Positions 2,050-20,027 of a DNA stretch of 64,000 nucleotides are shown piece after piece. The position numbers and the translations under genes are program-made. The stretch spans positions 21,995 to 85,994 of the forward strand of contig JACZRV010000002.1 in assembly GCA_022574555.1 (NCBI GenBank), in the 5' to 3' direction. Source of the DNA: SAR324 cluster bacterium (GTDB taxonomy: Bacteria; SAR324; JACQKK01). Below the pieces are notes generated by a model. The model searched no databases. It saw nothing but the letters and a program-made list of their open reading frames with translations, and was not told where the DNA came from. Each line of letters starts with the position of its first letter. Positions within the stretch are counted from its first letter, which is position 1.

Positions 2050-2673
2050 TTGGATTGCCGGGAAGAGGTCTGCATGTCATTGAGAAAAGTGATCAAGTCC
2101 GGCTTTATCGCCGGTATCCTGGCGGCGCTGGTGTTGCTTGCGTTTCAGCCGCAGCCAGGGTGGGGCATCAAGATTCTCCCGCCAATCAAGATGGCACGCA
2201 GGCCCATGCCGGAGTTCACCAATCAGCATCCGGATGCCTGGGTCAATTCCCGTCCTCTCCAAGTGGCGGACCTCAGGGGAAAGGTAATCCTCATCAAGGT
2301 CTGGACCACCTCGTGAATTAACTGCATTCGCAGCATCCCGTGGGTCCATGGGCTAGAGGAAAAATACGGCGGGCAGGGCCTAATCGTCATTGGGATTCAT
2401 AGCCCCGAGTTTGAGTTCGAAAAGGATCGGGGCCGTGTGGAGCGGTTTGCCCGGAAGTTCAAGATGTCCAATCCCGTCTATATCGACAACGACTTCGCCT
2501 ACTGGAAGGCCCTGAAGAACGAGTACTGGCCGGAATTCTATCTGGTGGACCGCCAGGGCATGATCCGCGGTAAGATCCTCGGCGAAATGCGCGACGAAAC
2601 CGAACGGGCGAAGCGATTCGAATTCGTCCTGAAGGAACTCCTGAAAGAAGAATACCCTGCGGCCACGAAGTAG
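2050..2673 (+). CDS. Membrane-anchored TlpA/DipZ-like thiol:disulfide oxidoreductase with an in-frame TGA at 2314-2316 read as selenocysteine (S-U-I-N-C). The start may be 2074.
   Basis: ORFs 2050-2316 and 2437-2673 are in the same frame and are joined by a single TGA. The sequence KVILIKVWTTS-TGA-INCIRSIPWVHGLEEKYGGQGLIVIGIHSPEF...WPEFYLVDRQG matches the FWTYSCINC motif of DipZ C-terminal / redoxin domains, with Sec replacing the first Cys. There is an N-terminal TM anchor. Confidence 0.7.
2322..2352 (+). promoter_or_regulatory. Candidate SECIS-like hairpins downstream of the UGA at 2314.
   Basis: ctgcattcgcag (2322-2333) is a 4-bp stem. cccgtgggtccatggg (2337-2352) is a 6-bp stem with a G·U pair and a GGUC loop. 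They lie 6 and 21 nt after the TGA. Confidence 0.35.
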
Positions 2674-2840: not shown

Positions 2841-3728
2841 TCACGACGCCGGCGGCCGGTAGCGGTAAAAACTTTCCAGGATCGCCTGGAGCTGGCCACG
2901 GTCGCCGGCCGGGGCGCATCCTTGGGGGTGGGTGGCGATGCGGCAGAGATCGGCGAACCACTTGTCCTGCCGGGAGATGTTGAATCCGATGGTATTGACG
3001 GTCACCAGGGGAAATTTTTCCTTGGCCTTTAGCACCGAGTCCAGGGTGTAGCGGCTCTTGCCCCAATCCTCGCCGTCGGAGATCACCACGAGCACGGGGA
3101 ACCGCTCACCCGAGCGGTAAGCGGCCTGGTCGCGGCGTTCCGCGAAGATTTCCAAGGATCTGATGATCGCCTGGTAGAGATTGGTGCCGCCCGCGGTTTT
3201 TAACTTGTCTATGGCCTGAATGAGCCGCTCGCGGGTGCGGGAGCCCGGCCGGCCCACGCGGACGAAACCGCTGCGGGTCTCCCCAGGCATCTTCAGCTTG
3301 TGCAAGCGGGTGTTGAACGCCCAGATTTGCGCCCTCGTCTGATCCGACATGCCCTCCACGACCTGTTTCAAGGCGCTCTTGGCCGCCAGCAGCAGGGTGC
3401 CGCTCCCGCCGGGAGCGCGATTGAGCATGGAGTCGGACGTATCGAGCAGAATCACCACGGCCGGATAGCGCGGCCGCTTGGCGGGTTCAGACGGCGGGGC
3501 GCGACGGGCAGCGGGGGGAGGGGGAGGGGCCGGTTGCGGCTGGAGCACCGGTTCCTCGACCGCCGGCGGGGGTGGCGGCTCCGGCTCCGTCACGAACTGG
3601 GTGCCTTCCTCGGAGATGATGTCCTGTTCCAACCCCTGGGCCTGAACCTGCCCGGCGGTCAGCCAACAGACCGAGACGAGACCCGCGAAGGCGCTTGCGA
3701 CAAGTCTAACCGTCATCACCATTCTCAA
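2841..3728 (-). CDS. Secreted von Willebrand factor A (VWA) domain protein with a proline-rich linker.
   Basis: Signal peptide, PPPPP-rich segment, MIDAS motif DTSDSM, and a VWA-like core (LVVISDGEDWG). Confidence 0.75.
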   Translation of the reverse strand: MRMVMTVRLVASAFAGLVSVCWLTAGQVQAQGLEQDIISEEGTQFVTEPEPPPPPAVEEPVLQPQPAPPPPPAARRAPPSEPAKRPRYPAVVILLDTSDSMLNRAPGGSGTLLLAAKSALKQVVEGMSDQTRAQIWAFNTRLHKLKMPGETRSGFVRVGRPGSRTRERLIQAIDKLKTAGGTNLYQAIIRSLEIFAERRDQAAYRSGERFPVLVVISDGEDWGKSRYTLDSVLKAKEKFPLVTVNTIGFNISRQDKWFADLCRIATHPQGCAPAGDRGQLQAILESFYRYRPPAS

Positions 3729-4276: not shown

Positions 4277-4663
4277 TTGAAACTGAAAAAACATTACTTC
4301 GCCTTATTGGCTTTGGGCACTGTTTGCATCGTGCTGTGGTGTCAGAGCCTGAGCGCCGCAGCTCATCATATCCCGGCCCACGCGGCCGCCGCACCGCACC
4401 ATGAATCCCACCCCACCCCGGTGGCGCCAACCCCGGAGGAAGGCGATTGCCCGATGCCAGATTGCGGCCGAACGTTCACCATCTCGGCCCATTCTGTGAC
4501 GCTGCCCGCCCCGGTGGAGTTAAACAGCAGCGTCAATTTGGAGCTTCGGGCCACGGCGCGCTATTACAGTATTTCACATCACGTCGTTCACAAATTCGCC
4601 CTCCACGAGAACGAACCCCCTAATAGTTCCCTGGTGCAGCAGGCGGTTCTGATCCGCATTTAG
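4277..4663 (+). CDS. Small secreted His-rich protein of unknown function, possibly copper-related.
   Basis: TTG start with a signal peptide. HHIPAHAAAAPHHESHP and a CPMPDC motif. It lies immediately upstream of the multicopper oxidase. Confidence 0.4.
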   Translation: MKLKKHYFALLALGTVCIVLWCQSLSAAAHHIPAHAAAAPHHESHPTPVAPTPEEGDCPMPDCGRTFTISAHSVTLPAPVELNSSVNLELRATARYYSISHHVVHKFALHENEPPNSSLVQQAVLIRI

Positions 4664-4827
4664 CCCCACCAATCTGATCGCGACCAGACCGAGCCCCGGC
4701 CGTCGCACGACCTCGCCTTGCCCCCAAGGTGCGTCTCTGCGGCGCTTCCCGGCGGATTTTCGCGGATCGTGCGCTTGGCCGCTGGTTTCGTTCTGCCGAC
4801 AAAGCCCATTCAATCCGGAGTTAATCG

Positions 4828-6141
4828 ATGAATTGGAATCGACGAGATTTTTTCAAGAAGGCAGCGGCCTTTGCCGGCGTCGCCGCCGCGGGCGCGGCTT
4901 CGCTGAGTAGGCAGGCCCGTGGGCAAGAGCAACACGACGGTGACCACGTTATGCCGGAAATGGAACAGCCCGAAATGGAACACGACGGCATGGCCGGCGC
5001 CGCGATGGCTGGCGGAGAAGATTACCTGGGAGGGCAGGGGAGCATGATGTTCATGCGCGGACACAACATGATCGGGGCGTTCACCGAGCCCCCCGGTGCG
5101 CCTGCCGACGACGAGGTGGACTACCGCACATTCCGCCTCAACTTCGAGATCGCCGAGCACGAATTGTTGCCCGGAATCACGTTCAAGGCGTTCGCGTTCA
5201 ACGGCCAGATCCCAGGGCCGGAGTTCCGGGTGCAGGAAGGCGAGTGGATCAAGGTGGAAGCCACGAATCGCACCGAGGAGATGCATACCATCCACTGGCA
5301 TGGGGTCGATGTGCCCTACACCATGGACGGCGTGCCCATGATTACTCAGGACCCCATCCATCCGGGCGAAACCTTCGTCTATCGTTTCCAGGCCCGGCCG
5401 GCGGGTACCCGGTTCTATCATTGCCATTGGGGCACGCCCCTGCACATGAGCAGCGCCCTTCACGGCGCATTCATCATCGAATCGGACGACGACCCCATCC
5501 GCCGGGACTATCCCTACAAGCGGGATTACACCCTGGTGCTGGAATCGTGGGATATCGATTTCACTCGCCGGGAAATCAACGCCCTGCTGAAAGGGATGAA
5601 ACAAGTGAACCGGCTGATGGCACAGGGCCGGCTCTCTCCGGCGACCCACGGGTTCTTCCGCAACTTTGCGGAATTCAAAAAGGTCGTGGATTCCGGCGAT
5701 TACATCCCACCTTACGTTCGGGGCGCGGCGCCTTTCCGGCGCTGGCAGCCCAACTTCTTCGGCATCAACGGCAAGTGCTATCCGGCAGTGGATCCACGGT
5801 CGCTCTTGAAGATCAAAGAGGGGGAATGGATCCGCGTGCGGATCATCAACGGGGGCATGGGGCTGCATCATCTTCATTTGCACGGCCACCAATTCGTCCA
5901 CGTCGCCCAAGACGGCAATCCCCTGGAACATCCGCTACGCCTCAACACGATCTCGATCTTTCCGGGCACGACCGCGGACATCATGATCTACGGCGACAAT
6001 CCGGGGTTTTGGACCTTCCACGATCACAATACGCTGCACGCACAGAACAACGGCATCTATCCCGGCGGAATGATCACCCTGCTGATTTACGAGGGCATGG
6101 AGTCCCCGCCCTACGTGCCATCTGTCTCGCTGATCCAATAA
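4828..6141 (+). CDS. Tat-secreted multicopper oxidase, probably of the two-domain type.
   Basis: Twin-arginine signal (RRDFFKKAAAFAG). Copper-ligand motifs HWHG, HCHWGTPLHM, HHLHLHGHQF and FHDHNTLH. Met/His-rich N-terminal segment. Confidence 0.85.
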   Translation: MNWNRRDFFKKAAAFAGVAAAGAASLSRQARGQEQHDGDHVMPEMEQPEMEHDGMAGAAMAGGEDYLGGQGSMMFMRGHNMIGAFTEPPGAPADDEVDYRTFRLNFEIAEHELLPGITFKAFAFNGQIPGPEFRVQEGEWIKVEATNRTEEMHTIHWHGVDVPYTMDGVPMITQDPIHPGETFVYRFQARPAGTRFYHCHWGTPLHMSSALHGAFIIESDDDPIRRDYPYKRDYTLVLESWDIDFTRREINALLKGMKQVNRLMAQGRLSPATHGFFRNFAEFKKVVDSGDYIPPYVRGAAPFRRWQPNFFGINGKCYPAVDPRSLLKIKEGEWIRVRIINGGMGLHHLHLHGHQFVHVAQDGNPLEHPLRLNTISIFPGTTADIMIYGDNPGFWTFHDHNTLHAQNNGIYPGGMITLLIYEGMESPPYVPSVSLIQ

Positions 6142-6168
6142 TCAATTCCCGCCCGCCGGAGGACGACG

Positions 6169-7383
6169 ATGAAACGGAAGTTCTTATTTTTACTCGCCGG
6201 GCTCGCTTTACTGGCGTTTCCGGCCCAAGCACTCGAAGTCGACGAGGTCTCCCTGCCGCGCATTCAATTCGAGGGAGAATTCATCAGCACGATCGACTAT
6301 TTCGAACAGCCCGGCGCCAAGACCGGACCCCGGCTCGCTCCGAACACCAATGACAACAACGTTATTTTCGCATTCGACAAACACCTCTGGAACAGTTCAA
6401 TCGTCGCAGGCATCGTCACGCGAATTCGCCTCGAGGACAACGAAGCGCAGCCCAGGCTGTTCGGGTTCCTGGGCGCCCCGCGATATCGCATCAGCGCGGG
6501 AACGATGCGCCTCCGCAACAACCTGGTGCGCTTCCCCACGGCCCGCGAAGAAGATTTGCTGACTTATACGAACGTCCTGAACGGCTCCCTGGGATTCGAG
6601 ATCGAGGACGATCCAGAGCATCTGTTCGGAGACAACATCGTTTTCGAGTGGTTCTTCCGCCCGTCCTTTTGGCGCGCCGCGGTGTTCTCGGAGAATCGGA
6701 CGCAGACTAAAGTGGAAGACTTCGCGTTGAGAAAGGATGCCCCACCCAACACCCTGGGCTTCTCCATTTCCTACGAAGTCCCGGACGCGGTGAAGTACGA
6801 CTATGTGTTGCGCCGCTTGGGATTCATCTATGACGCCCAAGCGTTGGATCGGCGATCCGGCGACGCGGCGCAATTGTCCAGTCTGCTTCTGGGAGGCGTC
6901 CTGGCCCTCAACGACAATCCAGAGTTCCCCTGGGAGGGCGCGTTCCAGGTCATCACGACCGCGGGCCTCGACGACAGAGATAGCAGCGGTAACGAGGTCG
7001 GCGCGCAGGCCGAAGGTGAACTGAGCCGGGAGGCGGCTACCGCCACGGTATTGTCAGTATTTTACGCCAACCGCAAATACCTCCGCACGCGCTGGGATGT
7101 GGCGCTCACTCTCGCGCGGAAATCCTACCCGGATATCTCCGGCGGAGCTCAATGGACGGCCGCGCCCACGTATCGCTATGCCTTGAGTTCGGGCGTGCAC
7201 CTTATCGCGCAGGTGATCTATACCGATTACGGCGATGGCCTCGCCGAAATCATCGGGCGCGACCGCGACTACCGGATTCAGGTGGGCGTCACGATGTTCG
7301 TCGAGCAGGCGGTGAACGACGAGGTGGTCGACTACGACAGCATCCTCGAGATGGAGCAGGGCAGCCTGTTCCGGGGGTATTAG
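6169..7383 (+). CDS. Secreted protein, possibly an outer-membrane beta-barrel, of unknown function within the copper cluster.
   Basis: Signal peptide. Alternating hydrophobic pattern and a C-terminal aromatic residue (…LFRGY). Lies 27 nt downstream of the MCO. Confidence 0.5.
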   Translation: MKRKFLFLLAGLALLAFPAQALEVDEVSLPRIQFEGEFISTIDYFEQPGAKTGPRLAPNTNDNNVIFAFDKHLWNSSIVAGIVTRIRLEDNEAQPRLFGFLGAPRYRISAGTMRLRNNLVRFPTAREEDLLTYTNVLNGSLGFEIEDDPEHLFGDNIVFEWFFRPSFWRAAVFSENRTQTKVEDFALRKDAPPNTLGFSISYEVPDAVKYDYVLRRLGFIYDAQALDRRSGDAAQLSSLLLGGVLALNDNPEFPWEGAFQVITTAGLDDRDSSGNEVGAQAEGELSREAATATVLSVFYANRKYLRTRWDVALTLARKSYPDISGGAQWTAAPTYRYALSSGVHLIAQVIYTDYGDGLAEIIGRDRDYRIQVGVTMFVEQAVNDEVVDYDSILEMEQGSLFRGY

Positions 7384-7479
7384 GGCTTCGATCCCAAGGC
7401 GTTACCGGAAACACAATCGTGGCGGCGGACCGGGGTTTGCGCCCGCCGCCCTCGATCAACCCAATGGAGGATCACGACG

Positions 7480-8292
7480 ATGATTCCGCACATGATAATT
7501 CCGTTACTTGGGGCTTCCCTGGCCCTGGGATTATGGCTGAACCCAATTTCCGTGCAAGCCGAGGAGGGACACGAGCATGAGGCCTCCGCCGCTGCCGAAG
7601 AACACGAGGAGCAGATGGGTGCCGAAGAAGGCGGGCACGGGCACGAGATGAAAGCCGAGGACAGGAAGCACGAGATGCACGAGAAGGAAGCCGGAGGGCA
7701 CGAGCACGAGATGGAAGCCGAGGCCGAGGGGCATGGGCACGATGAAATGCCCGGTCACGACGCCATGGGTGGCGAAGCCCACATGGACGATGATCGCCTG
7801 GAAATAGACGATGGCCTTGTCCGCGCCAAGTGGTGCCGCGAAACGCTGCTCGAAGGAAAGCTGATGCTGGACGAGACGCAAACTCGGCACTGTATGGCCC
7901 TTGTCTCGCGCCACGAGGGCGCCGGAGGGAATGTGATCGTCGTGCGCATGACCGCCAGCGCGGACAACACGGTCAACCGCTTCGATCCGGCACGGGTGGA
8001 GATCCGGCGTGGCGATACCGTGCGCTGGGTAATGGACTCGGGACCCGTTCACAACGCGGTGGCCTACCCCAACCGCATTCCGTACACGTCCCTCCCTTTC
8101 GAGGGTCCGCTGCTGACCAAGGTGGGGGACGCCTGGAGCCAGACCTTCTTCTTTCCAGGAACTTACGAATACCATTGCCACCCCCACGAGGCCCTGGGAA
8201 TGCGCGGCGTCGTGATCGTGGAGCGGGAATCCCGTCCCGACGAGTTCCGCAAGATACGGGGCGGCGGCGAGGCCGCGCATGCGCACCATTGA
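7480..8292 (+). CDS. Blue-copper cupredoxin (plastocyanin/pseudoazurin-like) with a His/Glu/Met-rich N-terminal extension.
   Basis: Signal peptide. Repeated GHEHE/HEM motifs. Type-1 Cu site YEYHCHPHEALGMRGVV. Confidence 0.8.
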   Translation: MIPHMIIPLLGASLALGLWLNPISVQAEEGHEHEASAAAEEHEEQMGAEEGGHGHEMKAEDRKHEMHEKEAGGHEHEMEAEAEGHGHDEMPGHDAMGGEAHMDDDRLEIDDGLVRAKWCRETLLEGKLMLDETQTRHCMALVSRHEGAGGNVIVVRMTASADNTVNRFDPARVEIRRGDTVRWVMDSGPVHNAVAYPNRIPYTSLPFEGPLLTKVGDAWSQTFFFPGTYEYHCHPHEALGMRGVVIVERESRPDEFRKIRGGGEAAHAHH

Positions 8293-8791: not shown

Positions 8792-9931
8792 TCAATCCAC
8801 GGCCAAAGCCCGTTCGAAAACTTCCAGATGTGCCGCCAGGAACCCTTCCCTGGAGAATCGGCGCCGTACCTGATTTCGGCCCTCGGCGCCCAGCCGACGG
8901 CGCAGGCCGGGGTGCGAGGCAAGGGTCGCCAGTTCCTCAGCCAATGCGGCGGCGTCGGGTGAAGCGGCGATGAGCCCGCTGACGCCGTGCCCGATCACTT
9001 CCGGCAGCGCGCCGGTGGGCAACGCCACGACAGGAGTTCCGGCCGACAGGAACTCTACCGCCACACGGCAGATCATCTCGGAGGCGATCGAGGGGATCAC
9101 TCCCATGTCCACGCCGCTCATTATTTGACCCACGTCCTTCCGGTAGCCGAGCCAGGTGACCCTGTCGCCGAGCTGCATCTCGGCGATCCGCCGTTCCAGA
9201 AGCGCGCGATGAGGGGCCTCGCTGGCATAGGCCTTGTTCAAGATGAGAAGATGGGGCTTGGGCAGGGACGGCGGAAGCATTCGCAGGGCTTCGAGAAGGG
9301 TGCCGTGGCCTTTTTCGGGCGCGATCCGGCCCACGACGCCCAGGAGCAGCGCCTCCTCGGGCAGACTCAGTTCTGCGAGCAGAGACTGGCGGGCCGATTG
9401 CCCCACCACCTCGGCAGGCATCGGGGAGGGTGCAGCCGGATAGTAGATGGTGCGGATGCGCTCGGGCGGGACCATGAGGCGGCTTTCCAGCCGCTGCCGG
9501 ATCACGTCGGCGCAAGCGATGACACCTTGGCACCCGCGGCCGTAAAGCCGTCGATTGAGCCAGCCCCTGCGCTCGGCCTGGGCGCCGCCGCGGGTACGAA
9601 CGACCTTCGGCCCGCCCCACCACCTGGCGGCGAACAGGTGCAGTGGAAATTCGGCGGAGCGGAAGACATTTACGACGTCGATCCGCTGCCGCTGCTGGAA
9701 CTCGGTCAGCCGCCTGATAGCGGAACGCCAGCGCCATGGGCTGGCGCCGTCAGGTAGCAATCCGGTGAGGGGAGCAAGGCCGCGCCGATGCAATTCTTGT
9801 GCGTTGCGGGTGCCGGGATGGACCAGCATCCAGACCCCGTGGCCCGCTTCCCGCAACAATTCGGCCAATATCGCCGCGTATTCCGCCTCGGCGTTCCAGT
9901 AGGGAAAGCCGGAACTGATCAGGACATTCAC
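8792..9931 (-). CDS. Glycosyltransferase family 4 (GT-B, RfaG-like).
   Basis: GT4 architecture (…GVVGRIAPEKG…, EFLSAGTPVVA). Its start overlaps the stop of the upstream giant ORF by 4 nt. Confidence 0.8.
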   Translation of the reverse strand: MNVLISSGFPYWNAEAEYAAILAELLREAGHGVWMLVHPGTRNAQELHRRGLAPLTGLLPDGASPWRWRSAIRRLTEFQQRQRIDVVNVFRSAEFPLHLFAARWWGGPKVVRTRGGAQAERRGWLNRRLYGRGCQGVIACADVIRQRLESRLMVPPERIRTIYYPAAPSPMPAEVVGQSARQSLLAELSLPEEALLLGVVGRIAPEKGHGTLLEALRMLPPSLPKPHLLILNKAYASEAPHRALLERRIAEMQLGDRVTWLGYRKDVGQIMSGVDMGVIPSIASEMICRVAVEFLSAGTPVVALPTGALPEVIGHGVSGLIAASPDAAALAEELATLASHPGLRRRLGAEGRNQVRRRFSREGFLAAHLEVFERALAVD

Positions 9932-12900
9932 GCCTCGGACGGCAACTTGGCCGAATCCGATTCCGGTGCGGTCTCCAATCGGTCCAGATCGATGGAGCGG
10001 CCCAAGGTTTCCTGCACCAGGCGGCTGGCGATGGAACCCGGATTGTCCACCATACCCGGGCTGTCGAGGTTGATGATGATGTTGTGCTTTACCGCCTCGA
10101 AATATCGCCCCCGCAGCGCGGCGTCGTCCCGAATGTTGCCCTCGTCAAATTTGCTGATGAAGATCAGGATTAACTGGGGAATGCCATTGAAAAGCGATTC
10201 CTTGGCCTGGATAATATCCAGCGCCTCGTGAAGGCTCAACGTTCCCGGCAGCACCAGGTAGGTGTGGCGGCGCTGCCCCCCTTCCCGCAGCAAATCATCG
10301 CATAATCGCAAGATGCCCTCCGGGTTCGCGGCGGCCAGTTTGTGGAGCGAGATGCTGCTTTCCTCGAATCCTCCCTGCTGCAGGTTGAACCGCACCTGGC
10401 GGTAAAACGCATAGATGGCGGGCAGTACGTTGCCCAGGTGGGCGAACAGGGGATGATCCGGATTCTGACCATAAAAGGCCCCGGAGCGAAATTGGGCCAG
10501 TTGAAACCGGCGGTTGACGGCCCGCTCCAGAAAGTCCCGCTGTATGTTTTCGAAGGAGAGGTTGCCGGCGTTGCGTATAAACGCCAGAGCCCGATTGGTG
10601 GAGGCGATGCGTTCATGAATATTGGGGATCAGATACTTTTTCGCAATGATGCGGTAGGAGGGCAGAAATCGCTCCTCGATCACCCGGGGCAAATCCTCAG
10701 CTTCCCGGGTCAGCTGCTCCACCCGGGCGGAAATGGATTCCACACTCTTTTGCTTGGCCCGCTTTTCCCTCACCGCCTTGCGGAAAGCGCCATAGGCCTT
10801 CTGCATATTCTGGAAATGGGAGACGGGCGTCTGAACATCCTGGAGGTAGCCCTCCAGCGCGCTCATCGCGGTGAGCTGCTCGCCCACGCGCTCCCATTCG
10901 GTTCGTCCCTTGCGATATCCCGCTTCCAGTTGGTTCTCTTCGCCGAGGCTGGCTGGCGGGATATAGGACACCAAAGGCTCCGTGATCTTCTTGCCCATCA
11001 TCCGCTGCAGCCTGGATTGCGCGCCGCGCATTTCCAGCAAAGCCACCTCGTTTTCAGAGGCGTAAAGCTCACCGGCAATCTCCAGCCGGCGTGTATACAA
11101 ACGCGACATGGACGCAGTACGAGAATCTTCGGTTTCCCTCGCCCCGCGAATGATTCCGGCCAGCTCATCGCGGGCCTGTAACAAACGCTCCTCGATCCCG
11201 GCAAGTACGCGAACCGAGGAGCTATCACCCATCTCCTTGCGGTCAGGAAAGGTGATGGAGGAAAGTATGCGGCTGAGATTTTCCCGCACCTCCCCGACTT
11301 GCCTCTGGCTCTGGGAACTGAGCGATTGCAGCTCATCGTCGGTCTGGCCCAGTTCTTCTTTCAGCACGCCCCTGCGTGCGTGCAGATTTTCGATGGCCTG
11401 TGTTGCGTCATCGTCGGATACCTTCGCCAGATCGTTCAGGCGTTCGATCAGCGGGATGAGGCCGGCCTCGGCGCGGACGATCGCCTGCCGCCGGTGGCGA
11501 GCTGCAAGCAGCGGAATATAGGCCCGATGCATGCGCTGGAAGACTTGCAGGTAGGTCTTCAGTTTCTCACGCCGCTGATGCAGATCACGGTTGACCAGAA
11601 GCACCATTTTTTGGATGGCACCCTTGAGTTCCGTGAGAATCTCCACGGAACGCTTGGCCAGCATGCGATCCATCGTCTCGACGTAATCCTCGCCGCCCAA
11701 CAAGGCTTCCGCCGGCATCTCCCGCTCGCCCAAGGCATCGTTGACCACACCCAGAGCTTCGAAATACTTTTGTTCGGCACCGGCCAGAATGAGGGCCTGT
11801 GCATCCAGCTCATGGCGAAATTGGGCGATGTCGTCGTGGTGCTCCTCTTTCAGGCGCCTGTGGACTTCCTGGTAGGCCGGTGAGTTTTTTGCCTCCTCAG
11901 GGTCGCCGATGCGCCGCAGATCTTCCAACTCATGCTTGGCTTCGCCGATGCGATCTTCGAAATAGCGTTCGTAATACGCCATGCCCGGCTGTTCGTCGTA
12001 TTCCTGGCGCCAAAGGTAATTGACGATGGAGAACTGTTCTGCAAGGAATACGCTGAATGCAAAATCGCCATCGGGCGAAGGGGTCTCCGCTTCCGAATGG
12101 GGCAAAACCTCCGACCACGCCATTCCGGGAAGGTGAAATTCCGCCCTGTTCCGTTCGAAATCCGATTCATTGGCGAAAAAGACAAAATCCGGCGACTCGT
12201 CCTGCGCAAAAAACTGGCCGTAAGCGCCGCTTTTCAGATTGGCGATCTGCTTGGCCAACATCGCCGCCTCATTGCACTGGAACAGCTTGACGAAATAGGC
12301 GTCGTGGTCGAAGCTCGTTTGGTCCATGCGGTGGAATTCCGACTCGGAAAATTTGATGAAGACACGGAGCTCGTTGTAGACCGTTTCCAGGTGCTCGGCA
12401 CGCAATTGGTCGTAGGGCGGCGGCTCGCCGCGGGCCCATTCAAGCACAAACGGCAGGCGATGGTTGATCTGGTCCGGGTCGAACGCGCCTGCTCCTTCCC
12501 CGGAAAAGAGTTCCCGCAGAACCGTGGTCAGCAGCTCATAGCGCTCCGCCAACCGGTTTGCTTGGTCGTGGTAGTCCGGGAGTTGATCGATGGAGTCACA
12601 CAGGTAATAGGACTTGTCGCTGGGAATGAATCGGCTGAGACCGAACGGCTTGAGCAGAATTAGCGTTTGCGCGGCCATCGCGCCCAGGCACGCAATTTTG
12701 AGTTGGCCGGCATGTCCTTTGAGCTTCGCCTGTTTGGCCAGGATCTTTTCGTAAACCCGGGACAGGAATAGGCGGCGGATTCCTGCGCGAACGTCCCCGA
12801 ACCGCGGGCGGCCTACTTCGGTCACCACCACCGCGTCAAACGCCAGCGGGTGCCGTTCCTCCCGCTCCGCGCCTGAAGCGGCGGGGGCGCCATTCCCGTG

Positions 12901-14070
12901 GATTTTAAGTGAAGTGACTTCATACAGCGGCATGAAGTCGCGGGAGGGTTTCCACAGAAAGCTGATATGTCCTTCGAAGCAGTTGATGCGGATTGCCCGC
13001 ACCCGCTCCATGAGAATCTCTTCTTCCTCCCGTCCGGGCAGTTTTCGGTAGAACGCCTGAATTTGCGTCGTTGGAATCTCCCGGCCGAGTAGGCCTTTTT
13101 CCTTGAATTGTTCGGAGTAGACCTTTTCCTCGTCCACCCGCACGGCATGAAACGATTCGCCCCGCTCGCTGCCGAAGCGGATGGATTCGATGATGGATAA
13201 AGGCAGATCGACGGTAATCAGCCGATTCTTGAGCTTGGCGGAGACGTCCAGCTCGTCGATGTTGCCCACGCCAAATTGGTGGTACAGCCGTTTCAAGCTG
13301 GCAGGTGTAAAGCATTCGCTGCGGTTCTTGCCCAGGCGTATGCGCAATTGATCGAAGAAGAGTTCGGGGAAGGTAGGATATTTTGGAAGTTCCACCATCA
13401 CCCGGCTCAAATCATCCTGCGAGCGCAACGTGACGGTATCCCCGGATGCGTGAAAGCCCAGTTCGCAAGTCGTGCCTTCCTCGTCGAGCAGATCACCCAA
13501 CAGGGCACGCATCCTGGGAAGCTCTCCGTGCAACAACAATGGGCAGTCCGGATAGCGCCGTTTGATCTCCGGCAACCGGGTGACGACGGCGTGCACGAAT
13601 TGAAAATCTGAATGGAGCTCGATAAGCACGCCGTGCAGGGTTTCCTCGGAGCCCTCCAGCACGCGCTCGATCACCAGATCTGGTGCAAGCTGCCGCGAAC
13701 CCTCCATGATGGGCACGAACATGCGGCGCAGGGGCCGGCGCAGGTCGTCCGGGATGTGGTGGATGGAATACCCGCGGTTGGGATTGACTACGGCCAGCCG
13801 GCCAAAGTCGTACTTGGAAATCGGGGGCACCTTTCCCCGCCGGGCCAACACTTGGGCGTCACGGGCGATTTTCTCGTGCTGGGCCGATTCCAGAGGAATG
13901 AGATCGTAATCGATTTCCATTACCGATCCATTGACGGCGGGCCTGCCGCCTGTGCTCACGTGACCGGGGCGCCGGGGCGCCGATTTCCAAGTACGACTTT
14001 GGCCGCCGCCCGTGGGGATGGTGGCCGGGCCATCGGATTCAGGGACGGGTTTGGCCGCTCCCCCTGACAA
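9928..14070 (-). CDS. Very large (about 1330-1380 aa) uncharacterised cytoplasmic protein with no recognisable catalytic or NTPase motifs. The start is more likely the internal Met at 13920.
   Basis: Continuous 4.1 kb ORF between proA and GT4 with 4-nt and 32-nt overlaps. No Walker A and no TM segments. Charged, coiled-coil-like middle region. Codon usage matches its neighbours. Confidence 0.6.
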   Translation of the reverse strand: MSGGAAKPVPESDGPATIPTGGGQSRTWKSAPRRPGHVSTGGRPAVNGSVMEIDYDLIPLESAQHEKIARDAQVLARRGKVPPISKYDFGRLAVVNPNRGYSIHHIPDDLRRPLRRMFVPIMEGSRQLAPDLVIERVLEGSEETLHGVLIELHSDFQFVHAVVTRLPEIKRRYPDCPLLLHGELPRMRALLGDLLDEEGTTCELGFHASGDTVTLRSQDDLSRVMVELPKYPTFPELFFDQLRIRLGKNRSECFTPASLKRLYHQFGVGNIDELDVSAKLKNRLITVDLPLSIIESIRFGSERGESFHAVRVDEEKVYSEQFKEKGLLGREIPTTQIQAFYRKLPGREEEEILMERVRAIRINCFEGHISFLWKPSRDFMPLYEVTSLKIHGNGAPAASGAEREERHPLAFDAVVVTEVGRPRFGDVRAGIRRLFLSRVYEKILAKQAKLKGHAGQLKIACLGAMAAQTLILLKPFGLSRFIPSDKSYYLCDSIDQLPDYHDQANRLAERYELLTTVLRELFSGEGAGAFDPDQINHRLPFVLEWARGEPPPYDQLRAEHLETVYNELRVFIKFSESEFHRMDQTSFDHDAYFVKLFQCNEAAMLAKQIANLKSGAYGQFFAQDESPDFVFFANESDFERNRAEFHLPGMAWSEVLPHSEAETPSPDGDFAFSVFLAEQFSIVNYLWRQEYDEQPGMAYYERYFEDRIGEAKHELEDLRRIGDPEEAKNSPAYQEVHRRLKEEHHDDIAQFRHELDAQALILAGAEQKYFEALGVVNDALGEREMPAEALLGGEDYVETMDRMLAKRSVEILTELKGAIQKMVLLVNRDLHQRREKLKTYLQVFQRMHRAYIPLLAARHRRQAIVRAEAGLIPLIERLNDLAKVSDDDATQAIENLHARRGVLKEELGQTDDELQSLSSQSQRQVGEVRENLSRILSSITFPDRKEMGDSSSVRVLAGIEERLLQARDELAGIIRGARETEDSRTASMSRLYTRRLEIAGELYASENEVALLEMRGAQSRLQRMMGKKITEPLVSYIPPASLGEENQLEAGYRKGRTEWERVGEQLTAMSALEGYLQDVQTPVSHFQNMQKAYGAFRKAVREKRAKQKSVESISARVEQLTREAEDLPRVIEERFLPSYRIIAKKYLIPNIHERIASTNRALAFIRNAGNLSFENIQRDFLERAVNRRFQLAQFRSGAFYGQNPDHPLFAHLGNVLPAIYAFYRQVRFNLQQGGFEESSISLHKLAAANPEGILRLCDDLLREGGQRRHTYLVLPGTLSLHEALDIIQAKESLFNGIPQLILIFISKFDEGNIRDDAALRGRYFEAVKHNIIINLDSPGMVDNPGSIASRLVQETLGRSIDLDRLETAPESDSAKLPSEA

Positions 14071-17742: not shown

Positions 17743-19746
17743 GTGCAAAAACTGGAACAATTGATTTGGTCCGTCGCACTGCTGTCGTCCGTGGGCCTAC
17801 TGATGGTCTATGCCTATGTGCCGCAATGGCTTCCATGGGACACCAGCGCATTCGATATTTCCATGGACGGTGCGGTCTCCGACTGGCCCTTTTACGGGCG
17901 CGATGCGGGCGGCACCCGCTACTCGCCCCTGGATCAAATCAACCGCGAAAACGTCCTCTTCTTGGAGGAGGCTTGGACCTATCGCACGGGAGACTACGCC
18001 GACGGATCGGACGGCCGGCAAAAAACCACCTTCCAGGCCACACCGATCCTGGTCGACGGCACGCTTTATTTCAGCACTGTTTACGGACGAGTGATCGCGC
18101 TGGATCCGGAAAGCGGCGAAGCGCGTTGGACGTACGATCCGGGGATGGATCGTGACGTGAGCTTTTCCGACCTCGCGTCGCGGGGGGTTGCCACTTGGGT
18201 CGATGACCGGCGCCGCACCGGGGAGCCGTGCCGACGCAGAATATTCGTGGGCACCTACGATGCGCGGCTGATCGCTCTCGACGCGGCGGCGGGCGAGCCT
18301 TGCACCGACTTCGGCGTGGGGGGGCAGGTCGACTTGACCGTGGGCATTCGCAACGTAAGGCCAGGACACTACGGCGTTACTTCTCCGCCGGCCGTTATCG
18401 GCGATCTGGTCGTGGTGGGCTCGGCCATCGGTGACAATGGGGCGGTGGAGATGGCAGACGGCTCCGTCCGAGCCTACGACGCCCGCGATGGCACCCTGCG
18501 ATGGCGCTGGGAACCGGTGCCCCGGCACCCGGCCGACCCGGCCCGCGATACCTGGAAAGGAGATGCCGCTGACAAGACCGGGGCGGCCAACGCCTGGTCC
18601 ATCCTTTCCGTAGATGCCGCCCGGGACCTGGTTTTCGTGCCCACCAGTAGCGCCAGCCCCGATTTCTACGGCGGCGAGCGGTTGGGCAGCAACTCTTACG
18701 CGAATTCGGTGGTGGCGTTGCGCGGATCGACGGGCGAGGTCGTGTGGCACTACCAACTCGTGCACCACGATCTGTGGGATTACGACCTGCCCGCACAGCC
18801 GGTGTTGCTCGATGTCAAGAAGGACGGTGTGGAAATACCGGCGGTGGCCCAGGCCACCAAGATGGGATTTCTCTTCCTGCTCCACCGGGAGACGGGCCAG
18901 CCGATCTTTCCCGTCGAGGAGCGCCCGGTGCCCCAATCCACGGTGCCGGGGGAAGAGACTTGGCCCACCCAACCTTTTCCCACCCACCCTCCGCCGTTGG
19001 CACCCACCAGGCTGACCCCCGACGATGCGTGGGGGCTCACACCGTGGGACCGCGGGTGGTGCCGGGATAAATTGGAGCGGCACCGCAACGAGGGTATCTT
19101 CACGCCGCCGAGCCTGGGGGGCAGCATCCAGTCACCCGGCATTGCCGGTGGGTCCAATTGGGGCGGACTGGCCTTCGAACCCAACCGAGGCGTGGTCGTG
19201 CTCAACATGACTCACATGCCCTATGTGGTGCAATTGATTCCCATCGAGGACTTCGAGGCCGAGCGGGCCCAGGCGCCCAAGGACACCGAATTCGCTCCGC
19301 AAGCGGGCACGCCCTACGGCATGAGCCGCGCGCCTCTGCTTTCGCCCCTGGGTCTGCCTTGCATCCAGCCGCCGTGGGGTACCCTGGCCGCGGTGGATTT
19401 GGGGAGTGGAGAAGTGAAATGGGAGGTGCCCCTGGGCACGATACGGGATATCGCCCCGGTGCCGCTGCCCATCGAATGGGGAACACCGAGTTTGGGCGGC
19501 CCCATCGTGACCGCGGGGGGGCTGATCTTCATCGGCGCAGCCATGGACGACTACCTGCGGGCCTTCGATATCGAAACGGGGGAGGAGCTATGGAAAGCCC
19601 GCCTCCCGGCCGGCGGTCAGGCCACACCGATGACCTACCGGCTCACGCCTTCCAGCCGCCAATTCGTGGTGATCGCTGCCGGCGGGCACGGCAGGCTGGG
19701 CACCACCATCGGCGATCATCTCGTGGCCTTCGCCCTGCCGGAGTGA
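17743..19746 (+). CDS. Membrane-anchored PQQ-dependent dehydrogenase (glucose/quinate dehydrogenase family).
   Basis: N-terminal TM helix. PQQ beta-propeller repeats (W-motifs). Similar to the periplasmic domain of quinoprotein glucose dehydrogenase. Confidence 0.8.
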   Translation: MQKLEQLIWSVALLSSVGLLMVYAYVPQWLPWDTSAFDISMDGAVSDWPFYGRDAGGTRYSPLDQINRENVLFLEEAWTYRTGDYADGSDGRQKTTFQATPILVDGTLYFSTVYGRVIALDPESGEARWTYDPGMDRDVSFSDLASRGVATWVDDRRRTGEPCRRRIFVGTYDARLIALDAAAGEPCTDFGVGGQVDLTVGIRNVRPGHYGVTSPPAVIGDLVVVGSAIGDNGAVEMADGSVRAYDARDGTLRWRWEPVPRHPADPARDTWKGDAADKTGAANAWSILSVDAARDLVFVPTSSASPDFYGGERLGSNSYANSVVALRGSTGEVVWHYQLVHHDLWDYDLPAQPVLLDVKKDGVEIPAVAQATKMGFLFLLHRETGQPIFPVEERPVPQSTVPGEETWPTQPFPTHPPPLAPTRLTPDDAWGLTPWDRGWCRDKLERHRNEGIFTPPSLGGSIQSPGIAGGSNWGGLAFEPNRGVVVLNMTHMPYVVQLIPIEDFEAERAQAPKDTEFAPQAGTPYGMSRAPLLSPLGLPCIQPPWGTLAAVDLGSGEVKWEVPLGTIRDIAPVPLPIEWGTPSLGGPIVTAGGLIFIGAAMDDYLRAFDIETGEELWKARLPAGGQATPMTYRLTPSSRQFVVIAAGGHGRLGTTIGDHLVAFALPE

Positions 19747-19768: not shown

Positions 19769-19838
19769 CCGTGCCGACAGTACCGTGCCGACAGTACCGT
19801 GCGAATAGTACCGTGCGAATAGTACCGTGCGGCCATGC
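19769..19838. repeat. Tandem 14-bp repeat, about 5 units of (ccgtgccgacagta)/(ccgtgcgaatagta), between the PQQ-dehydrogenase gene and glyA.
   Basis: Direct inspection: ccgtgccgacagta x2, ccgtgcgaatagta x2, then a partial unit. Confidence 0.8.
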
Positions 19839-20027
19839 CCTGCGGCCAATACCATGCGAACTGAGCCGGTGCCCGTCGTGCGGTTACGCCGCCGCCCGCG
19901 CCCAATGATTCTTGCATTCGGACGAATATGCGCCATGATGGACGGGCCGCCGCGCGGGCGCACGTGGAGAGGCGCCCCAGGCAGCCGCCCTATCGATTGC
20001 AACCGCCGCCTACGGAGAATTCCAAAT

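What the first reader, a model, noticed from the sequence alone, without database searches (positions are those of the whole stretch)
4277..8292. Copper-handling cluster: His-rich protein, Tat-secreted multicopper oxidase, putative outer-membrane protein and Met/His-rich cupredoxin
Four co-directional genes separated by 27-170 nt. The MCO N-terminus carries a Met/His-rich tract (HVMPEMEQPEMEHDGMAGAAMAGG…MMFMRGHNM) like CueO/PcoA. The cupredoxin carries about 100 aa of repeated GHEHEM/HEM units before a plastocyanin-type T1 site. This resembles periplasmic copper oxidation and detoxification systems. The associated 404-aa secreted protein and the small His-rich protein are uncharacterised. The T1 motif HCHWG…H…M sits mid-protein, which points to a two-domain MCO, a rarer class.
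Basis: partly seen in the sequence, partly recalled or inferred. Interest (0 to 1): 0.5.

Follow-up and report, generated by a model that had tools for sequence, protein, structure and literature searches.

The report
Two-domain copper oxidase–porin gene cluster
This is a real four-gene operon in a SAR324 bacterium: a small secreted His-rich protein, a two-domain copper oxidase, a dedicated outer-membrane porin and a metal-binding blue-copper protein. The oxidase–porin core recurs in hundreds of bacterial species beside copper-export genes, so it is most likely an undescribed variant of the periplasmic copper-detoxification systems.

Summary
Four co-directional ORFs lie at 4277-8292, with gaps of 164, 27 and 96 nt and opposite-strand flanks.

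- **Gene 2** is a Tat-signal, type C two-domain multicopper oxidase. Its best solved relatives are 2ZWN and 3G5W, and it is not NirK.
- **Gene 3** has no family hit. It models with high confidence as a 16-strand trimeric-porin fold with a conserved acidic L3 loop.
- **Gene 4** combines a signal peptide, an 85-aa His/Met/Glu tract, a two-Cys motif and a plastocyanin-type cupredoxin.
- **Gene 1** sits where relatives carry a CutF/CopL-like (DUF2946) copper-sensing leader ORF. It is too divergent to be assigned to that family.

Comparative evidence:
- The oxidase subfamily is found in 447 species genomes.
- In 73 of the 80 best loci the porin gene directly follows the oxidase.
- About 47 loci have the leader ORF followed by a structured RNA.
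- 19 of 53 long loci carry Cus or P1B-ATPase efflux genes.

The best reading is a copper-oxidation and homeostasis module analogous to copLAB/pcoAB but built from different parts. Function is inferred, not shown. It is a new variant of a known kind and of moderate interest.

The parts
4277..4663 (+). Gene 1: a 128-aa secreted His-rich protein (12 His; Cys at 17, 22, 58 and 63; PP at 114-115; C-terminal VLIRI). It occupies the position of the CutF/CopL-like leader ORF seen in related loci.
   Evidence: ORF. No Pfam or NCBIfam hit. Only 3 homologs, all SAR324-like. Alignment A6. hhalign against 50 leader ORFs gave Prob 17%, E 1.4e-3, colinear.
4664..4827 (+). 164-nt spacer between gene 1 and the MCO. 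The GGAG Shine-Dalgarno is at 4817-4820.
   Evidence: Sequence. RNA fold of 4630-4850 gave z = 0.05. The 90 nt around the gene 1 stop gave z = -1.4. A CutF-type stem-loop is therefore inconclusive here.
4828..6141 (+). Gene 2: a 437-aa Tat-signal, type C two-domain multicopper oxidase.
   Evidence: Pfam Cu-oxidase_3 (aa 119-220) and Cu-oxidase_2 (aa 309-407). PDB 2ZWN 3e-54 and 3G5W 2.4e-51. Ligand columns are invariant in the 26-sequence alignment A5.
4924..5073 (+). MCO N-terminal His/Met-rich tract (aa 33-82). It ends in the subfamily-conserved motif SMMFMxGHxM (aa 72-81) and includes a 15-nt x2 tandem repeat at 4953-4982.
   Evidence: The region is absent from the 2ZWN/3G5W chains, whose alignments start at query aa 100.
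5554..5718 (+). Conserved inter-domain insert of about 55 aa (aa 243-297) containing M257, M264 and H274. It is absent from solved type C MCOs.
   Evidence: Gap in the PDB alignments between query aa 242 and aa 298. Conservation in A5.
6169..7383 (+). Gene 3: a 404-aa outer-membrane porin with a 16-strand barrel. It belongs to a family with no Pfam or NCBIfam model that is strictly linked to this MCO subfamily.
6511..6624 (+). Porin L3-like loop (aa 115-152) between strands 5 and 6. It carries the family's most conserved motif, FPTxR(D/E)(D/E)DLLxYT, with 8 acidic and 3 basic residues.
   Evidence: Secondary structure of the model. Conservation in A1/A3/A4. Composition.
7480..8292 (+). Gene 4: a 270-aa secreted multi-module protein (signal peptide, His/Met/Glu tract, two-Cys motif, cupredoxin, His tail).
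7561..7815 (+). His/Met/Glu-rich, probably disordered tract (aa 28-112; 13 His, 7 Met, 31 Asp/Glu). It includes a 36-nt x2 tandem repeat at 7641-7713.
7834..7893 (+). Two-Cys motif CRETLLEGKLMLDETQTRHC (aa 119-138). It matches C-x6-8-[LIVM]3-D-x6-C, the signature of the protein family that follows the porin in other lineages.
   Evidence: It is the only one of 350 window ORFs with the motif. The motif occurs in 42 of 3348 locus ORFs, almost all in the post-porin position. The profile HMM is not significant.
7948..8223 (+). Plastocyanin-family cupredoxin domain (aa 157-248). T1 ligands are H191, C233, H236 and M241. It is followed by the tail GGGEAAHAHH.
   Evidence: Pfam PF00127 at 52.9 bits (cut-off 21.2). 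PDB plastocyanin 1BXU 1.3e-13. Positions.

Best explanation
The region is a four-gene operon for handling copper in the cell envelope. It is functionally analogous to copLAB/pcoAB and cutFOG but built from different protein families.

Shown by sequence, homology or modelling:
- Gene 2 is a Tat-signal type C two-domain multicopper oxidase with a complete T1 site and trinuclear cluster.
- Gene 3 is a 16-strand porin of the classical trimeric-porin fold with an acidic constriction loop.
- Gene 4 carries a His/Met/Glu-rich tract and a T1 cupredoxin.
- The oxidase-porin pair is a conserved module across many phyla.

Inferred:
1. The oxidase is exported and works as a homotrimer, like 2ZWN and 3G5W. 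It binds Cu(I) through its conserved Met/His elements (SMMFMxGHxM and the Met/His-containing inter-domain insert). It oxidises Cu(I) to the less toxic Cu(II) while reducing O2 to water.
2. The porin gives Cu(II) a dedicated cation-selective route across the outer membrane. This is the role proposed for PcoB/CopB. The direction of flux is unknown.
3. The gene 4 protein buffers copper on its disordered His/Met/Glu tract. Its cupredoxin acts as a one-electron relay, oxidising bound Cu(I) and/or exchanging electrons with the oxidase T1 site, much as proposed for CopI. In other lineages the same position holds a His/Met-rich protein plus a cytochrome c, sometimes fused.
4. Gene 1 is the lineage-specific counterpart of the CutF/CopL-like leader ORF. 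In relatives, that ORF together with a structured RNA probably couples periplasmic copper sensing to translation of the oxidase.
For: - Two-domain type C MCO.
- Porin fold. Weak Porin_4 hits in 7 of 51 relatives.
- Module conservation: 447 species genomes carry the MCO subfamily. The porin lies immediately downstream in 73/80 loci. Five of the 7 exceptions are contig ends. The pair also holds in metagenome contigs down to 31% porin identity.
- Copper link 1: 50 loci have an upstream ORF ending in PP[RQKIC] (47 after I removed 3 as spurious on inspecting the listing). These ORFs are 105-150 aa with a signal peptide, a His/Met-rich middle, and in most loci Cys motifs such as C..C.HC. They match DUF2946, with L046 at 24.8 bits above the cut-off of 23.7 and four others sub-threshold. 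There is a weak CopL-family hit. CutF and CopL are experimentally copper-dependent regulators of downstream MCO genes (PMC9973294).
- Copper link 2: the 90 nt around the leader stop codon are strongly structured in the 47 retained loci (mean z -2.09, 29/47 below -1.5, p = 9e-12). Coding controls give z of about 0.
- Copper link 3: 19 of 53 loci of at least 9 kb carry CusA, CusB or a P1B ATPase with YHS/HMBD domains.
- Copper link 4: the Met/His motif SMMFMxGHxM is conserved across the subfamily, with M73 and H79 invariant.
- Copper link 5: a His/Met-rich secreted protein directly follows the porin in at least 38 loci. It is fused to cytochrome c in L023, L047 and L067, and apparently to the cupredoxin in SAR324.
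Against: - No experiment exists on any member, so substrate, regulation and flux direction are all inferred.
- In this window there are no other copper genes.
- Gene 1 has no DUF2946 or CopL HMM hit. Its Cys pair is not conserved. Its link to the leaders rests on position, rule-based criteria and a weak hhalign match (Prob 17%).
- There is no significant stem-loop in the window's spacer.
- The homology of gene 4's N-terminal half to the post-porin family is at motif level only. The profile HMM is not significant.
- The cupredoxin is not hit by NCBIfam's CopI models.
- No homolog of the porin occurs on PLSDB plasmids, unlike classical mobile copper-resistance determinants.
- The presence of cytochrome c or cupredoxin genes is also what an electron-transfer (respiratory) role would predict.
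Confidence: 0.6

Rival explanations
1. The module is for copper acquisition or cuproenzyme maturation rather than detoxification. The porin imports copper, the oxidase and the His/Met-rich cupredoxin control its redox state and hand it to periplasmic or inner-membrane cuproenzymes, and the leader ORF shuts the system off when copper is plentiful.
For: - PcoB, the analogous barrel, was reported to permit copper import (PMC9210255).
- DUF2946-type leaders can repress copper uptake genes, as CruR does in Bordetella (PMC9973294, PMC9426467).
- The SAR324 window has no efflux genes nearby.
- The carriers are environmental chemolithotrophs with high copper demand.
- There is no plasmid-borne copy.
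Against: In other genomes the neighbours are efflux systems (CusA, CusB, P1B ATPase), not PCuAC/Sco chaperones or TonB receptors. Oxidising Cu(I) to Cu(II) is the classical detoxifying step. Met-rich oxidase motifs are typical of cuprous oxidases in resistance systems.
Confidence: 0.18
2. The module is a metal-oxidising or electron-transfer module. The porin admits Fe(II) or Mn(II), or positions the oxidase at the outer membrane. The two-domain MCO oxidises the metal. The cupredoxin or cytochrome c links it to the respiratory chain or serves as the electron donor for O2 reduction.
For: - A porin plus periplasmic MCO was proposed as an Fe(II)-oxidation candidate in iron oxidisers (PcoAB; PMC5566968).
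- Some homologs are labelled 'manganese oxidase' by JGI.
- A close SAR324 relative (L004, MAG KW1-S11_24) carries the MAG-naming prefix (KW1-S11_) used in the ferromanganese-nodule sediment study (PMC10367259).
- One-electron carriers and a DUF2231 membrane protein recur downstream.
- The carriers are mostly lithotrophs.
Against: - An MCO delivers substrate electrons to O2 at its own trinuclear cluster, so there is no evident route to energy conservation (a point also made in PMC9040806).
- There are no multihaem cytochromes.
- The leader ORFs, His/Met-rich proteins and Cus/CopA neighbours point specifically to copper.
- The JGI label is an automatic orthology assignment. MoxA itself is a CueO-sized MCO, and its assignment as a Mn oxidase has been questioned.
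Confidence: 0.12
3. The oxidase acts on nitrogen oxides or hydroxylamine, as NirK-like or archaeal two-domain MCO chemistry, and the neighbours are its redox partners.
For: Type C two-domain MCOs sit next to cytochromes c and NirK in Nitrosomonas (own knowledge). An archaeal two-domain MCO was linked to hydroxylamine and nitroxyl chemistry (PMC11761707, listed). The NirK HMM gives a partial hit of 88 bits.
Against: All eight trinuclear-cluster His are present, so this is an oxidase and not a T2-only NirK. The NirK model is far below its cut-off of 296 bits. No nitrogen-cycle genes are in the window or among the recurrent neighbour families found by clustering. The copper-specific context argues against it.
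Confidence: 0.03

Closest known systems
copLAB (Xanthomonas, Stenotrophomonas) and pcoAB (E. coli plasmid, Caulobacter) copper-resistance modules
   Same: The gene logic is the same: a small regulatory leader ORF (CopL), then a Tat-exported periplasmic multicopper oxidase with Met/His-rich elements, then a dedicated outer-membrane beta-barrel. These modules often sit beside Cus or CopA efflux genes (PMC9973294, PMC5566968, PMC12509749).
cutFOG operon of Rhodobacter capsulatus (CutF leader, CutO oxidase, CutG chaperone)
   Same: Both have a small Sec-exported metal-binding ORF immediately upstream of a Tat-exported MCO. In relatives of this module the leader is DUF2946-like, ends in RPPR-type proline motifs and is followed by a structured RNA. 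A copper-binding accessory protein lies downstream.
   Different: CutO is a three-domain CueO-like oxidase and cutFOG has no porin. The window's own gene 1 lacks a conserved CxxxC and any DUF2946 HMM hit, and ends in VLIRI about 13 residues after its PP. No SD-shielding stem-loop could be shown.
Type C two-domain multicopper oxidases with solved structures: mgLAC (2ZWN) and the Nitrosomonas europaea blue copper oxidase (3G5W)
   Same: They share the domain architecture and copper-ligand pattern (HTIHWHG, YHCH, HxHxHGH, FHDH). The E-values are 3e-54 and 2.4e-51.
   Different: This subfamily has three differences. It adds an N-terminal extension of about 70 aa with the conserved SMMFMxGHxM motif. 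It adds a conserved inter-domain insert of about 55 aa. It has Leu or Met at the axial position followed by an invariant His. It is also genetically locked to a porin.
CopI, the periplasmic copper-tolerance cupredoxin of Rubrivivax gelatinosus, Vibrio and Pseudomonas
   Same: Both are single cupredoxin domains with His-Cys-His-Met ligands plus a His-rich disordered N-terminal region that binds copper. CopI is implicated in Cu(I) capture and oxidation (PMC13308877).
   Different: NCBIfam CopI models do not hit the window protein at E <= 0.01. CopI's conserved internal His/Met-rich motif between the ligands is not present here. Here the metal-rich tract is much longer (85 aa), is Glu-rich, and is followed by a two-Cys motif.
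Classical 16-strand trimeric porins (Omp32, PorB, OprP, DcaP, OmpU; Pfam Porin_4 clan)
   Different: Sequence identity is 9-13%. The window protein has no Pfam hit. It carries a family-specific acidic L3 motif and a conserved C-terminal extension (SILxxE(H/Q)G). It occurs only next to this MCO subfamily. Only 111 50%-identity clusters were found among 1.84 billion representatives.

Membership tests
Type C two-domain multicopper oxidase | Exactly two cupredoxin domains | tested here: met
   Pfam finds only Cu-oxidase_3 (aa 119-220) and Cu-oxidase_2/Cu-oxidase (aa 307-408) in 437 aa. The PDB alignments cover two domains.
Type C two-domain multicopper oxidase | T1 (Cys) site in the N-terminal domain only, and four HxH motifs supplying eight His to the trinuclear cluster | tested here: met
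   H153, C199 and H206 are in domain 1. The cluster His are H156/H158, H198/H200, H350/H352 and H398/H400. Domain 2 has HDH instead of HCH. All are invariant in 26 sequences.
Type C two-domain multicopper oxidase | Homotrimer with the trinuclear cluster at subunit interfaces | not testable with these tools
   Inferred from homology to 2ZWN and 3G5W.
Copper nitrite reductase NirK | Match to the NirK equivalog model; a T2 site only, without a full trinuclear cluster | tested here: not met
   TIGR02376 scores 88 bits against a cut-off of 296.3. All eight cluster His are present. PDB NirK hits are 1e-18 against 3e-54 for type C MCOs.
CueO/PcoA/CopA three-domain cuprous oxidases | Three cupredoxin domains; match to the copper_res_A or CueO models | tested here: not met
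   TIGR01480 scores 138.8 against 478.95. NF008205 (CueO) scores 69.7 against 525. The protein has two domains only.
PcoB/CopB outer-membrane copper-resistance protein | CopB family sequence signature and the PcoB barrel | tested here: not met
Classical trimeric 16-strand porins (Porin_4 clan) | 16-strand barrel with an inward L3 loop | tested here: met
Classical trimeric 16-strand porins (Porin_4 clan) | Sequence match to a porin Pfam model | tested here: inconclusive
   The window protein has 0 families. 7 of 51 relatives hit Porin_4 weakly, best E 7.6e-6.
CutF/CopL-like leader (DUF2946) | Rule-based criteria of PMC9973294: under 150 aa, N-terminal signal peptide, PP within the last 15 residues, same-strand gene within 1000 nt | tested here: met
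   128 aa. Hydrophobic N-terminus MKLKKHYFALLALGTVCIVLWCQSLSAAA (judged by eye; no signal-peptide predictor was available). PP at 114-115 of 128. The MCO follows 164 nt downstream. PP is not conserved in P0243.
CutF/CopL-like leader (DUF2946) | Family HMM match and a conserved Cys metal-binding motif (CxxxC or similar) | tested here: not met
   No DUF2946 or CopL hit at E <= 0.01. Only C63 is conserved outside the signal peptide. hhalign to the leader profile gave Prob 17%.
CutF/CopL-like leader (DUF2946) | Stem-loop downstream of the leader that shields the oxidase Shine-Dalgarno sequence | tested here: inconclusive
   In the window, z = 0.05 for the whole spacer and -1.4 for the 90 nt at the stop codon. 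In 47 related loci the mean z is -2.09, against about 0 in coding controls.
CopI copper-tolerance cupredoxin | Match to the CopI equivalog models and the conserved internal His/Met-rich motif | tested here: not met
   NF047895 and NF051440 are absent from the window protein's hits at E <= 0.01. No His/Met-rich segment lies between H191 and C233.
Plastocyanin/azurin cupredoxin family (PF00127) | Domain match with His, Cys, His and Met T1 ligands | tested here: met
   PF00127 scores 52.9 bits against 21.2. The ligands are H191, C233, H236 and M241. The plastocyanin equivalog TIGR02656 scores only 63 against 87.85, so this is not a photosynthetic plastocyanin.

The most novel reading that the evidence does not exclude
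The trimeric two-domain oxidase docks onto the trimeric porin to form an outer-membrane-associated oxidase complex. The docking could involve the porin's conserved C-terminal extension and the oxidase's subfamily-specific insert. The complex would be wired through a cupredoxin or cytochrome c fused to a copper-capturing module. This would be a previously unrecognised, widespread envelope system (at least 447 species) that oxidises metal ions as they cross the outer membrane. It would be switched on by a nascent-peptide copper sensor plus an RNA hairpin.
Probability: 0.2. Interest if true: 0.7.

Novelty: new variant of a known kind. Interest (0 to 1): 0.5.

Why it matters
Periplasmic copper detoxification is understood almost entirely from three-domain oxidases (CueO, PcoA, CopA) and the PcoB/CopB barrel in enterics and pseudomonads.

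This module suggests that many environmental lineages solve the same problem with a two-domain oxidase locked to a classical-fold porin. These lineages include SAR324, sulfur-oxidising Gammaproteobacteria, marine Alphaproteobacteria, Nitrospirota, Myxococcota, WOR-3 and Gemmatimonadota. Two of the module's protein families have no Pfam or NCBIfam model. It would also give a physiological role to type C two-domain MCOs, whose function is largely unknown.

Three further points follow.
- It offers a natural fusion series (copper-binding module plus cupredoxin or cytochrome c) for studying how bound Cu(I) is oxidised.
- It extends the CutF-type translational copper switch to a new operon class.
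- For genome annotation, it would replace 'hypothetical protein' labels and automatic 'manganese oxidase' labels in hundreds of genomes.

Tried and rejected
- **NirK reading:** rejected.
- **PcoB/CopB identity of the 404-aa protein:** rejected.
- **CopI membership of the cupredoxin:** rejected at HMM level.
- **'Manganese oxidase' label:** seen on some homologs. I followed it to MoxA. MoxA is a CueO-sized MCO whose Mn assignment is itself doubted, so the label carries no weight.
- **Manganitrophus MCO/porin literature:** no description of this module.
- **Exact-sequence look-up of the porin:** nothing on record.
- **The search for related loci with porin alignments A3 and A4:** The MCO alignment A5 was used instead.
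- **afdb50 fold search:** library unavailable.
- **First porin model from 10 sequences:** poor (pLDDT 59.8). It was replaced by a 51-sequence model.
- **Profile HMMs of the post-porin family core against the window protein:** no significant score. Only the motif-level test is positive.
- **Neighbour cluster 3 ('cytochrome c' in 49 loci):** this was probably a single-linkage merger of the His/Met-rich family with cytochrome c through fusion proteins. That is my inference from the lower recounts, not a direct check of the cluster's members. The recounts give 17-18 loci with separate cytochrome c, plus 3 fusions.
- **RNA fold of the window's gene 1-MCO spacer:** not different from shuffles.
- **Rfam and tRNA scans of the window:** empty.
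- **Promoter and terminator consensus scans:** uninformative.
- **tblastn of the porin against PLSDB plasmids:** no match.

Full report
**1. What is in the window**

Four ORFs lie head-to-tail on the + strand at 4277-4663 (128 aa), 4828-6141 (437 aa), 6169-7383 (404 aa) and 7480-8292 (270 aa). The gaps between them are 164, 27 and 96 nt. They are bracketed by genes on the opposite strand: a VWA-domain protein at 2841-3728 and a group 1 glycosyltransferase at 8792-9931. This is the layout of a self-contained operon.

The contig is from a SAR324 cluster bacterium MAG. The porin and the small protein are identical to NCBI proteins IID61_00510 and IID61_00500, both annotated 'hypothetical protein'.

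The rest of the 64-kb window encodes ordinary chromosomal functions. These include a PQQ dehydrogenase, SHMT, aldehyde:ferredoxin oxidoreductase, PPDK, G6PD and sensor kinases. There are no further copper genes, no tRNA and no Rfam match.

**2. The oxidase**

Pfam finds only two cupredoxin-type domains: Cu-oxidase_3 at aa 119-220 and Cu-oxidase_2 at aa 309-407. The best solved relatives are the two type C two-domain multicopper oxidases. These are the metagenomic laccase mgLAC (2ZWN, 3e-54) and the Nitrosomonas europaea blue copper oxidase (3G5W, 2.4e-51). NirK chains score about 1e-18. The NirK equivalog model reaches 88 bits against a cut-off of 296, and the CopA and CueO models are equally far below threshold.

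A 26-sequence alignment of the subfamily shows these invariant features:
- the twin arginines of the Tat motif (RRDFF, aa 5-9);
- the T1 residues H153, C199 and H206;
- all eight trinuclear-cluster histidines (H156/158, H198/200, H350/352, H398/400);
- HDH in place of HCH in domain 2.

Three features set this subfamily apart from the solved enzymes.
- The mature N-terminus has an extension of about 70 aa. Its variable His/Met-rich part ends in a conserved SMMFMxGHxM motif (aa 72-81, with M73 and H79 invariant).
- A conserved insert of about 55 aa lies between the domains (aa 243-297). M257 is invariant, and M264 and H274 are nearly invariant.
- By alignment to 2ZWN and 3G5W the axial T1 position is L211. 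It is Met in many relatives and is followed by an invariant H212.

Conserved Met/His elements near a T1 site are what cuprous oxidases such as CueO use to bind Cu(I). That statement rests on established knowledge and is an inference here.

**3. The 404-aa protein**

It has no Pfam, NCBIfam or PDB sequence match. A word-indexed search of 5.8 billion proteins found 10 relatives. An exhaustive profile search of 1.84 billion cluster representatives found 111. This is a small, previously unmodelled family.

The most conserved segment of the family is the L3-like loop motif FPTxR(D/E)(D/E)DLLxYT, in which R126 and D129 are invariant. In the window protein the loop has 8 acidic and 3 basic residues. 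This fits a cation-selective constriction, which is an inference. A conserved C-terminal extension (SILxxE(H/Q)G) follows the last strand and is modelled with low confidence.

**4. The 270-aa protein**

The C-terminal part (aa 157-248) is a plastocyanin-family cupredoxin (PF00127, 52.9 bits; plastocyanin 1BXU 1.3e-13). Its ligands are H191, C233, H236 and M241, and it ends in a His-rich tail. It is below threshold for the plastocyanin, pseudoazurin and amicyanin equivalogs, and NCBIfam's CopI models do not hit it.

The N-terminal part consists of:
- a signal peptide;
- an 85-aa tract with 13 His, 7 Met and 31 Asp/Glu, which contains a 36-nt tandem duplication;
- the segment CRETLLEGKLMLDETQTRHC (aa 119-138).

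**5. Comparative genomics: the core result**

I scanned one genome per species (185,579 species) with two conserved peptide patterns from the oxidase alignment. This found 447 genomes encoding a relative, and the best 80 loci were fetched. They come from these groups:
- Alpha- and Gammaproteobacteria, including Thioploca, Ectothiorhodospiraceae, Thioalkalivibrio, Acidiferrobacteraceae and Aquisalimonas;
- Nitrospirota, SAR324, Myxococcota and Deferrisomatales;
- WOR-3, Cytophagia and Gemmatimonadota.

A profile of the porin family finds a member immediately downstream of the oxidase in 73 of the 80 loci. In 5 of the 7 exceptions the contig ends too soon. L051 and L059 are true exceptions. Three metagenome contigs reached from the porin side show the same pairing down to 31% porin identity. 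The two genes therefore form an obligate module.

**6. The copper connection**

Five observations link the module to copper.

(a) Leader ORFs. In 50 loci an upstream ORF ends in PP[RQKIC]. I judged three of these spurious on inspecting the listing (L003, L045 and L083), which leaves about 47. These ORFs encode proteins of 105-150 aa with a signal peptide, a His/Met-rich middle and, in most loci, Cys motifs such as C..C.HC. The C-terminus is of the form (L/F)RPP(R/Q/K)xx. They match Pfam DUF2946. L046 is above threshold and four others are sub-threshold. One has a weak CopL-family hit. DUF2946 is the family of CutF and CopL, which were shown experimentally to be needed in cis for copper-dependent production of the downstream multicopper oxidase. 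CutF acts through a Sec signal peptide, a Cys motif, a proline-rich C-terminus and a stem-loop that hides the oxidase ribosome-binding site (PMC9973294, PMC8456105).

(b) Structured RNA. In the 47 retained loci, the 90 nt around the leader's stop codon fold much more stably than dinucleotide shuffles. The mean z is -2.09, 29 of 47 are below -1.5, none is above +1.5, and p = 9e-12. Mid-gene controls from the oxidase and porin give mean z of -0.08 and -0.02.

(c) Efflux neighbours. 19 of 53 loci of at least 9 kb carry a CusA-type RND pump, a CusB with a heavy-metal-binding domain, or a P1B ATPase with YHS/HMBD domains. DUF302, SHOCT and DUF2231 genes also recur.

(d) Oxidase motif. The Met/His motif of the oxidase is conserved across the subfamily.

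(e) A fourth family. Directly after the porin (offset -3 to +30 nt), at least 38 loci encode a secreted protein. It has MDHSxM-type His/Met repeats, a core with two Cys (C-x6-8-[LIVM]3-D-x6-C) and a His/Met tail. It has no Pfam or NCBIfam model. It is followed by, or in L023, L047 and L067 fused to, a class I cytochrome c. In some Alphaproteobacteria it is followed by a cupredoxin orthologous to the window's (L014, L025).

**7. How the window's genes 1 and 4 fit**

Gene 4. It carries the two-Cys motif at the right distance after a His/Met-rich tract, in the post-porin position. It is the only one of 350 window ORFs with the tight motif. The motif occurs in 42 of 3348 locus ORFs, almost all in that position. 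I therefore read gene 4 as a fusion of the post-porin copper-binding protein with the cupredoxin, parallel to the cytochrome c fusions elsewhere. This is a motif-level inference. Profile HMMs of the core do not score the window protein significantly. I put it at about 65%.

Gene 1. It has only three homologs, all SAR324-like. The four sequences, including one from MAG KW1-S11_24 (L004), share LLWCQ in the signal peptide, several His, a single conserved Cys (C63), P114 and an invariant C-terminal VLIRI.
- In favour of a CutF-like role: it meets the rule-based CutF-like criteria of PMC9973294 (under 150 aa, signal peptide, PP within the last 15 residues, same-strand gene within 1 kb). It also aligns colinearly with the leader profile.
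- Against: that alignment has only 17% probability. It has no DUF2946 or CopL HMM hit. The window's spacer shows no significant structure (z 0.05 and -1.4).

It is best described as the positional counterpart of the leader, with homology unproven.

**8. Mechanism and rivals**

The best-supported model (confidence 0.6) has four steps.
1. The Tat-exported, presumably trimeric, oxidase converts periplasmic Cu(I) to Cu(II) with O2.
2. The acidic-loop porin provides a dedicated passage for copper ions across the outer membrane. This is the PcoB/CopB role, and even for PcoB the direction of flux is disputed (PMC9210255 versus PMC12509749).
3. The gene 4 protein buffers copper and relays single electrons, as proposed for CopI (PMC13308877).
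4. The leader position confers copper-dependent translation, at least in relatives.

The rivals are:
- a copper-acquisition or maturation role (0.18);
- an Fe(II)/Mn(II)-oxidising or electron-conduit role (0.12). This is suggested by the redox carriers, the lithotrophic hosts and the PcoAB hypothesis for iron oxidisers (PMC5566968). It is weakened because an MCO passes electrons to O2 and because the copper-specific context is strong;
- nitrogen-oxide chemistry (0.03).

None of these is excluded experimentally.

**9. Comparison with known systems and novelty**

The module works like copLAB/pcoAB and cutFOG, but it is not a member of those families.
- The oxidase is a two-domain type C enzyme.
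- The barrel has a classical porin fold.
- The accessory protein is neither CopI, PcoE nor CutG.

Full-text searches of the held library found no paper describing such a module. The searches combined two-domain MCO with outer membrane, gene cluster or copper resistance. They also paired multicopper oxidase with SAR324, and with Manganitrophus plus porin. DUF2946 was searched with copper. That library omits most subscription journals, so prior description cannot be ruled out.

I classify it as a new variant of a known kind. The interest is moderate (0.5). A copper-homeostasis specialist would find four things worth testing: the obligate oxidase-porin pairing, two families without a Pfam or NCBIfam model, the redox-carrier fusions, and the extension of the CutF-type switch. 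The overall biological theme, however, is the expected one.

Noticed in passing
L001:4079-4528; L022:3306-3983; L036:8369-8752; fusions at L023:5652-6659, L047:2398-3222 and L067:7327-8169: A secreted protein family with no Pfam or NCBIfam model lies directly after the porin in at least 38 loci. It has His/Met repeats, a core C-x6-8-[LIVM]3-D-x6-C and a His/Met tail. It is fused to a class I cytochrome c in three lineages.
   Followed up: partly
Related loci, 90 nt around the stop codon of the leader ORF (e.g. L044, L059, L019, L016): A strongly structured RNA element follows the DUF2946-like leader ORFs. The mean z is -2.09 over 47 loci, against about 0 in coding controls. It could be a CutF-type SD-shielding stem-loop or an attenuator. 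It was not aligned or tested for covariation.
   Followed up: partly
window 9928-14070 (- strand): A 1380-aa ORF just downstream of the glycosyltransferase has no Pfam domain at E <= 1e-4. It is a large uncharacterised protein.
   Followed up: no
window 2050-2316 and 2437-2673 (+ strand), also 1635-1967: Two short ORFs look like the N- and C-terminal parts of one exported thioredoxin/redoxin-like protein separated by about 120 nt in another frame. A third ORF at 1635-1967 matches only the C-terminal part of AhpC/TSA (profile 46-122). This could be frameshifts, assembly errors or pseudogenes.
   Followed up: no
window 44001-46000; ORF 44420-47107 (- strand): G+C drops to 0.507, against about 0.60 elsewhere, and GC skew is -0.13. 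The drop lies over a gene for an unusual multi-domain sensor: zinc ribbon, adenylate/guanylate cyclase, PAS domains, histidine kinase ATPase and receiver.
   Followed up: no
window 17743-19746 (+ strand): A full-length PQQ-dependent alcohol/methanol-type dehydrogenase (PF01011, 814 bits). It lies next to SHMT (19827-21332) and near an aldehyde:ferredoxin oxidoreductase (25884-27596). This is compatible with the C1 and alcohol metabolism reported for SAR324.
   Followed up: no
window 4953-4982 and 7641-7713: The His/Met-rich tracts of the oxidase (PEMEQ/PEMEH) and of gene 4 each contain a DNA-level tandem duplication (15 nt x2 and 36 nt x2). This suggests the tracts grow by local duplication.
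   Followed up: partly
L051 and L059 (genome loci): Two loci carry the leader ORF and the oxidase but no porin within 7 kb downstream. L059 has CusA and DUF302 nearby. These are natural 'porin-less' variants that could be compared with the rest.
   Followed up: no
L004 (SAR324 MAG KW1-S11_24): The closest genome-level relative of the window's cluster (82% oxidase identity) is MAG KW1-S11_24. It carries the MAG-naming prefix (KW1-S11_) used in a deep-sea ferromanganese-nodule sediment study (PMC10367259). I did not confirm that this particular MAG comes from that study.
   Followed up: no
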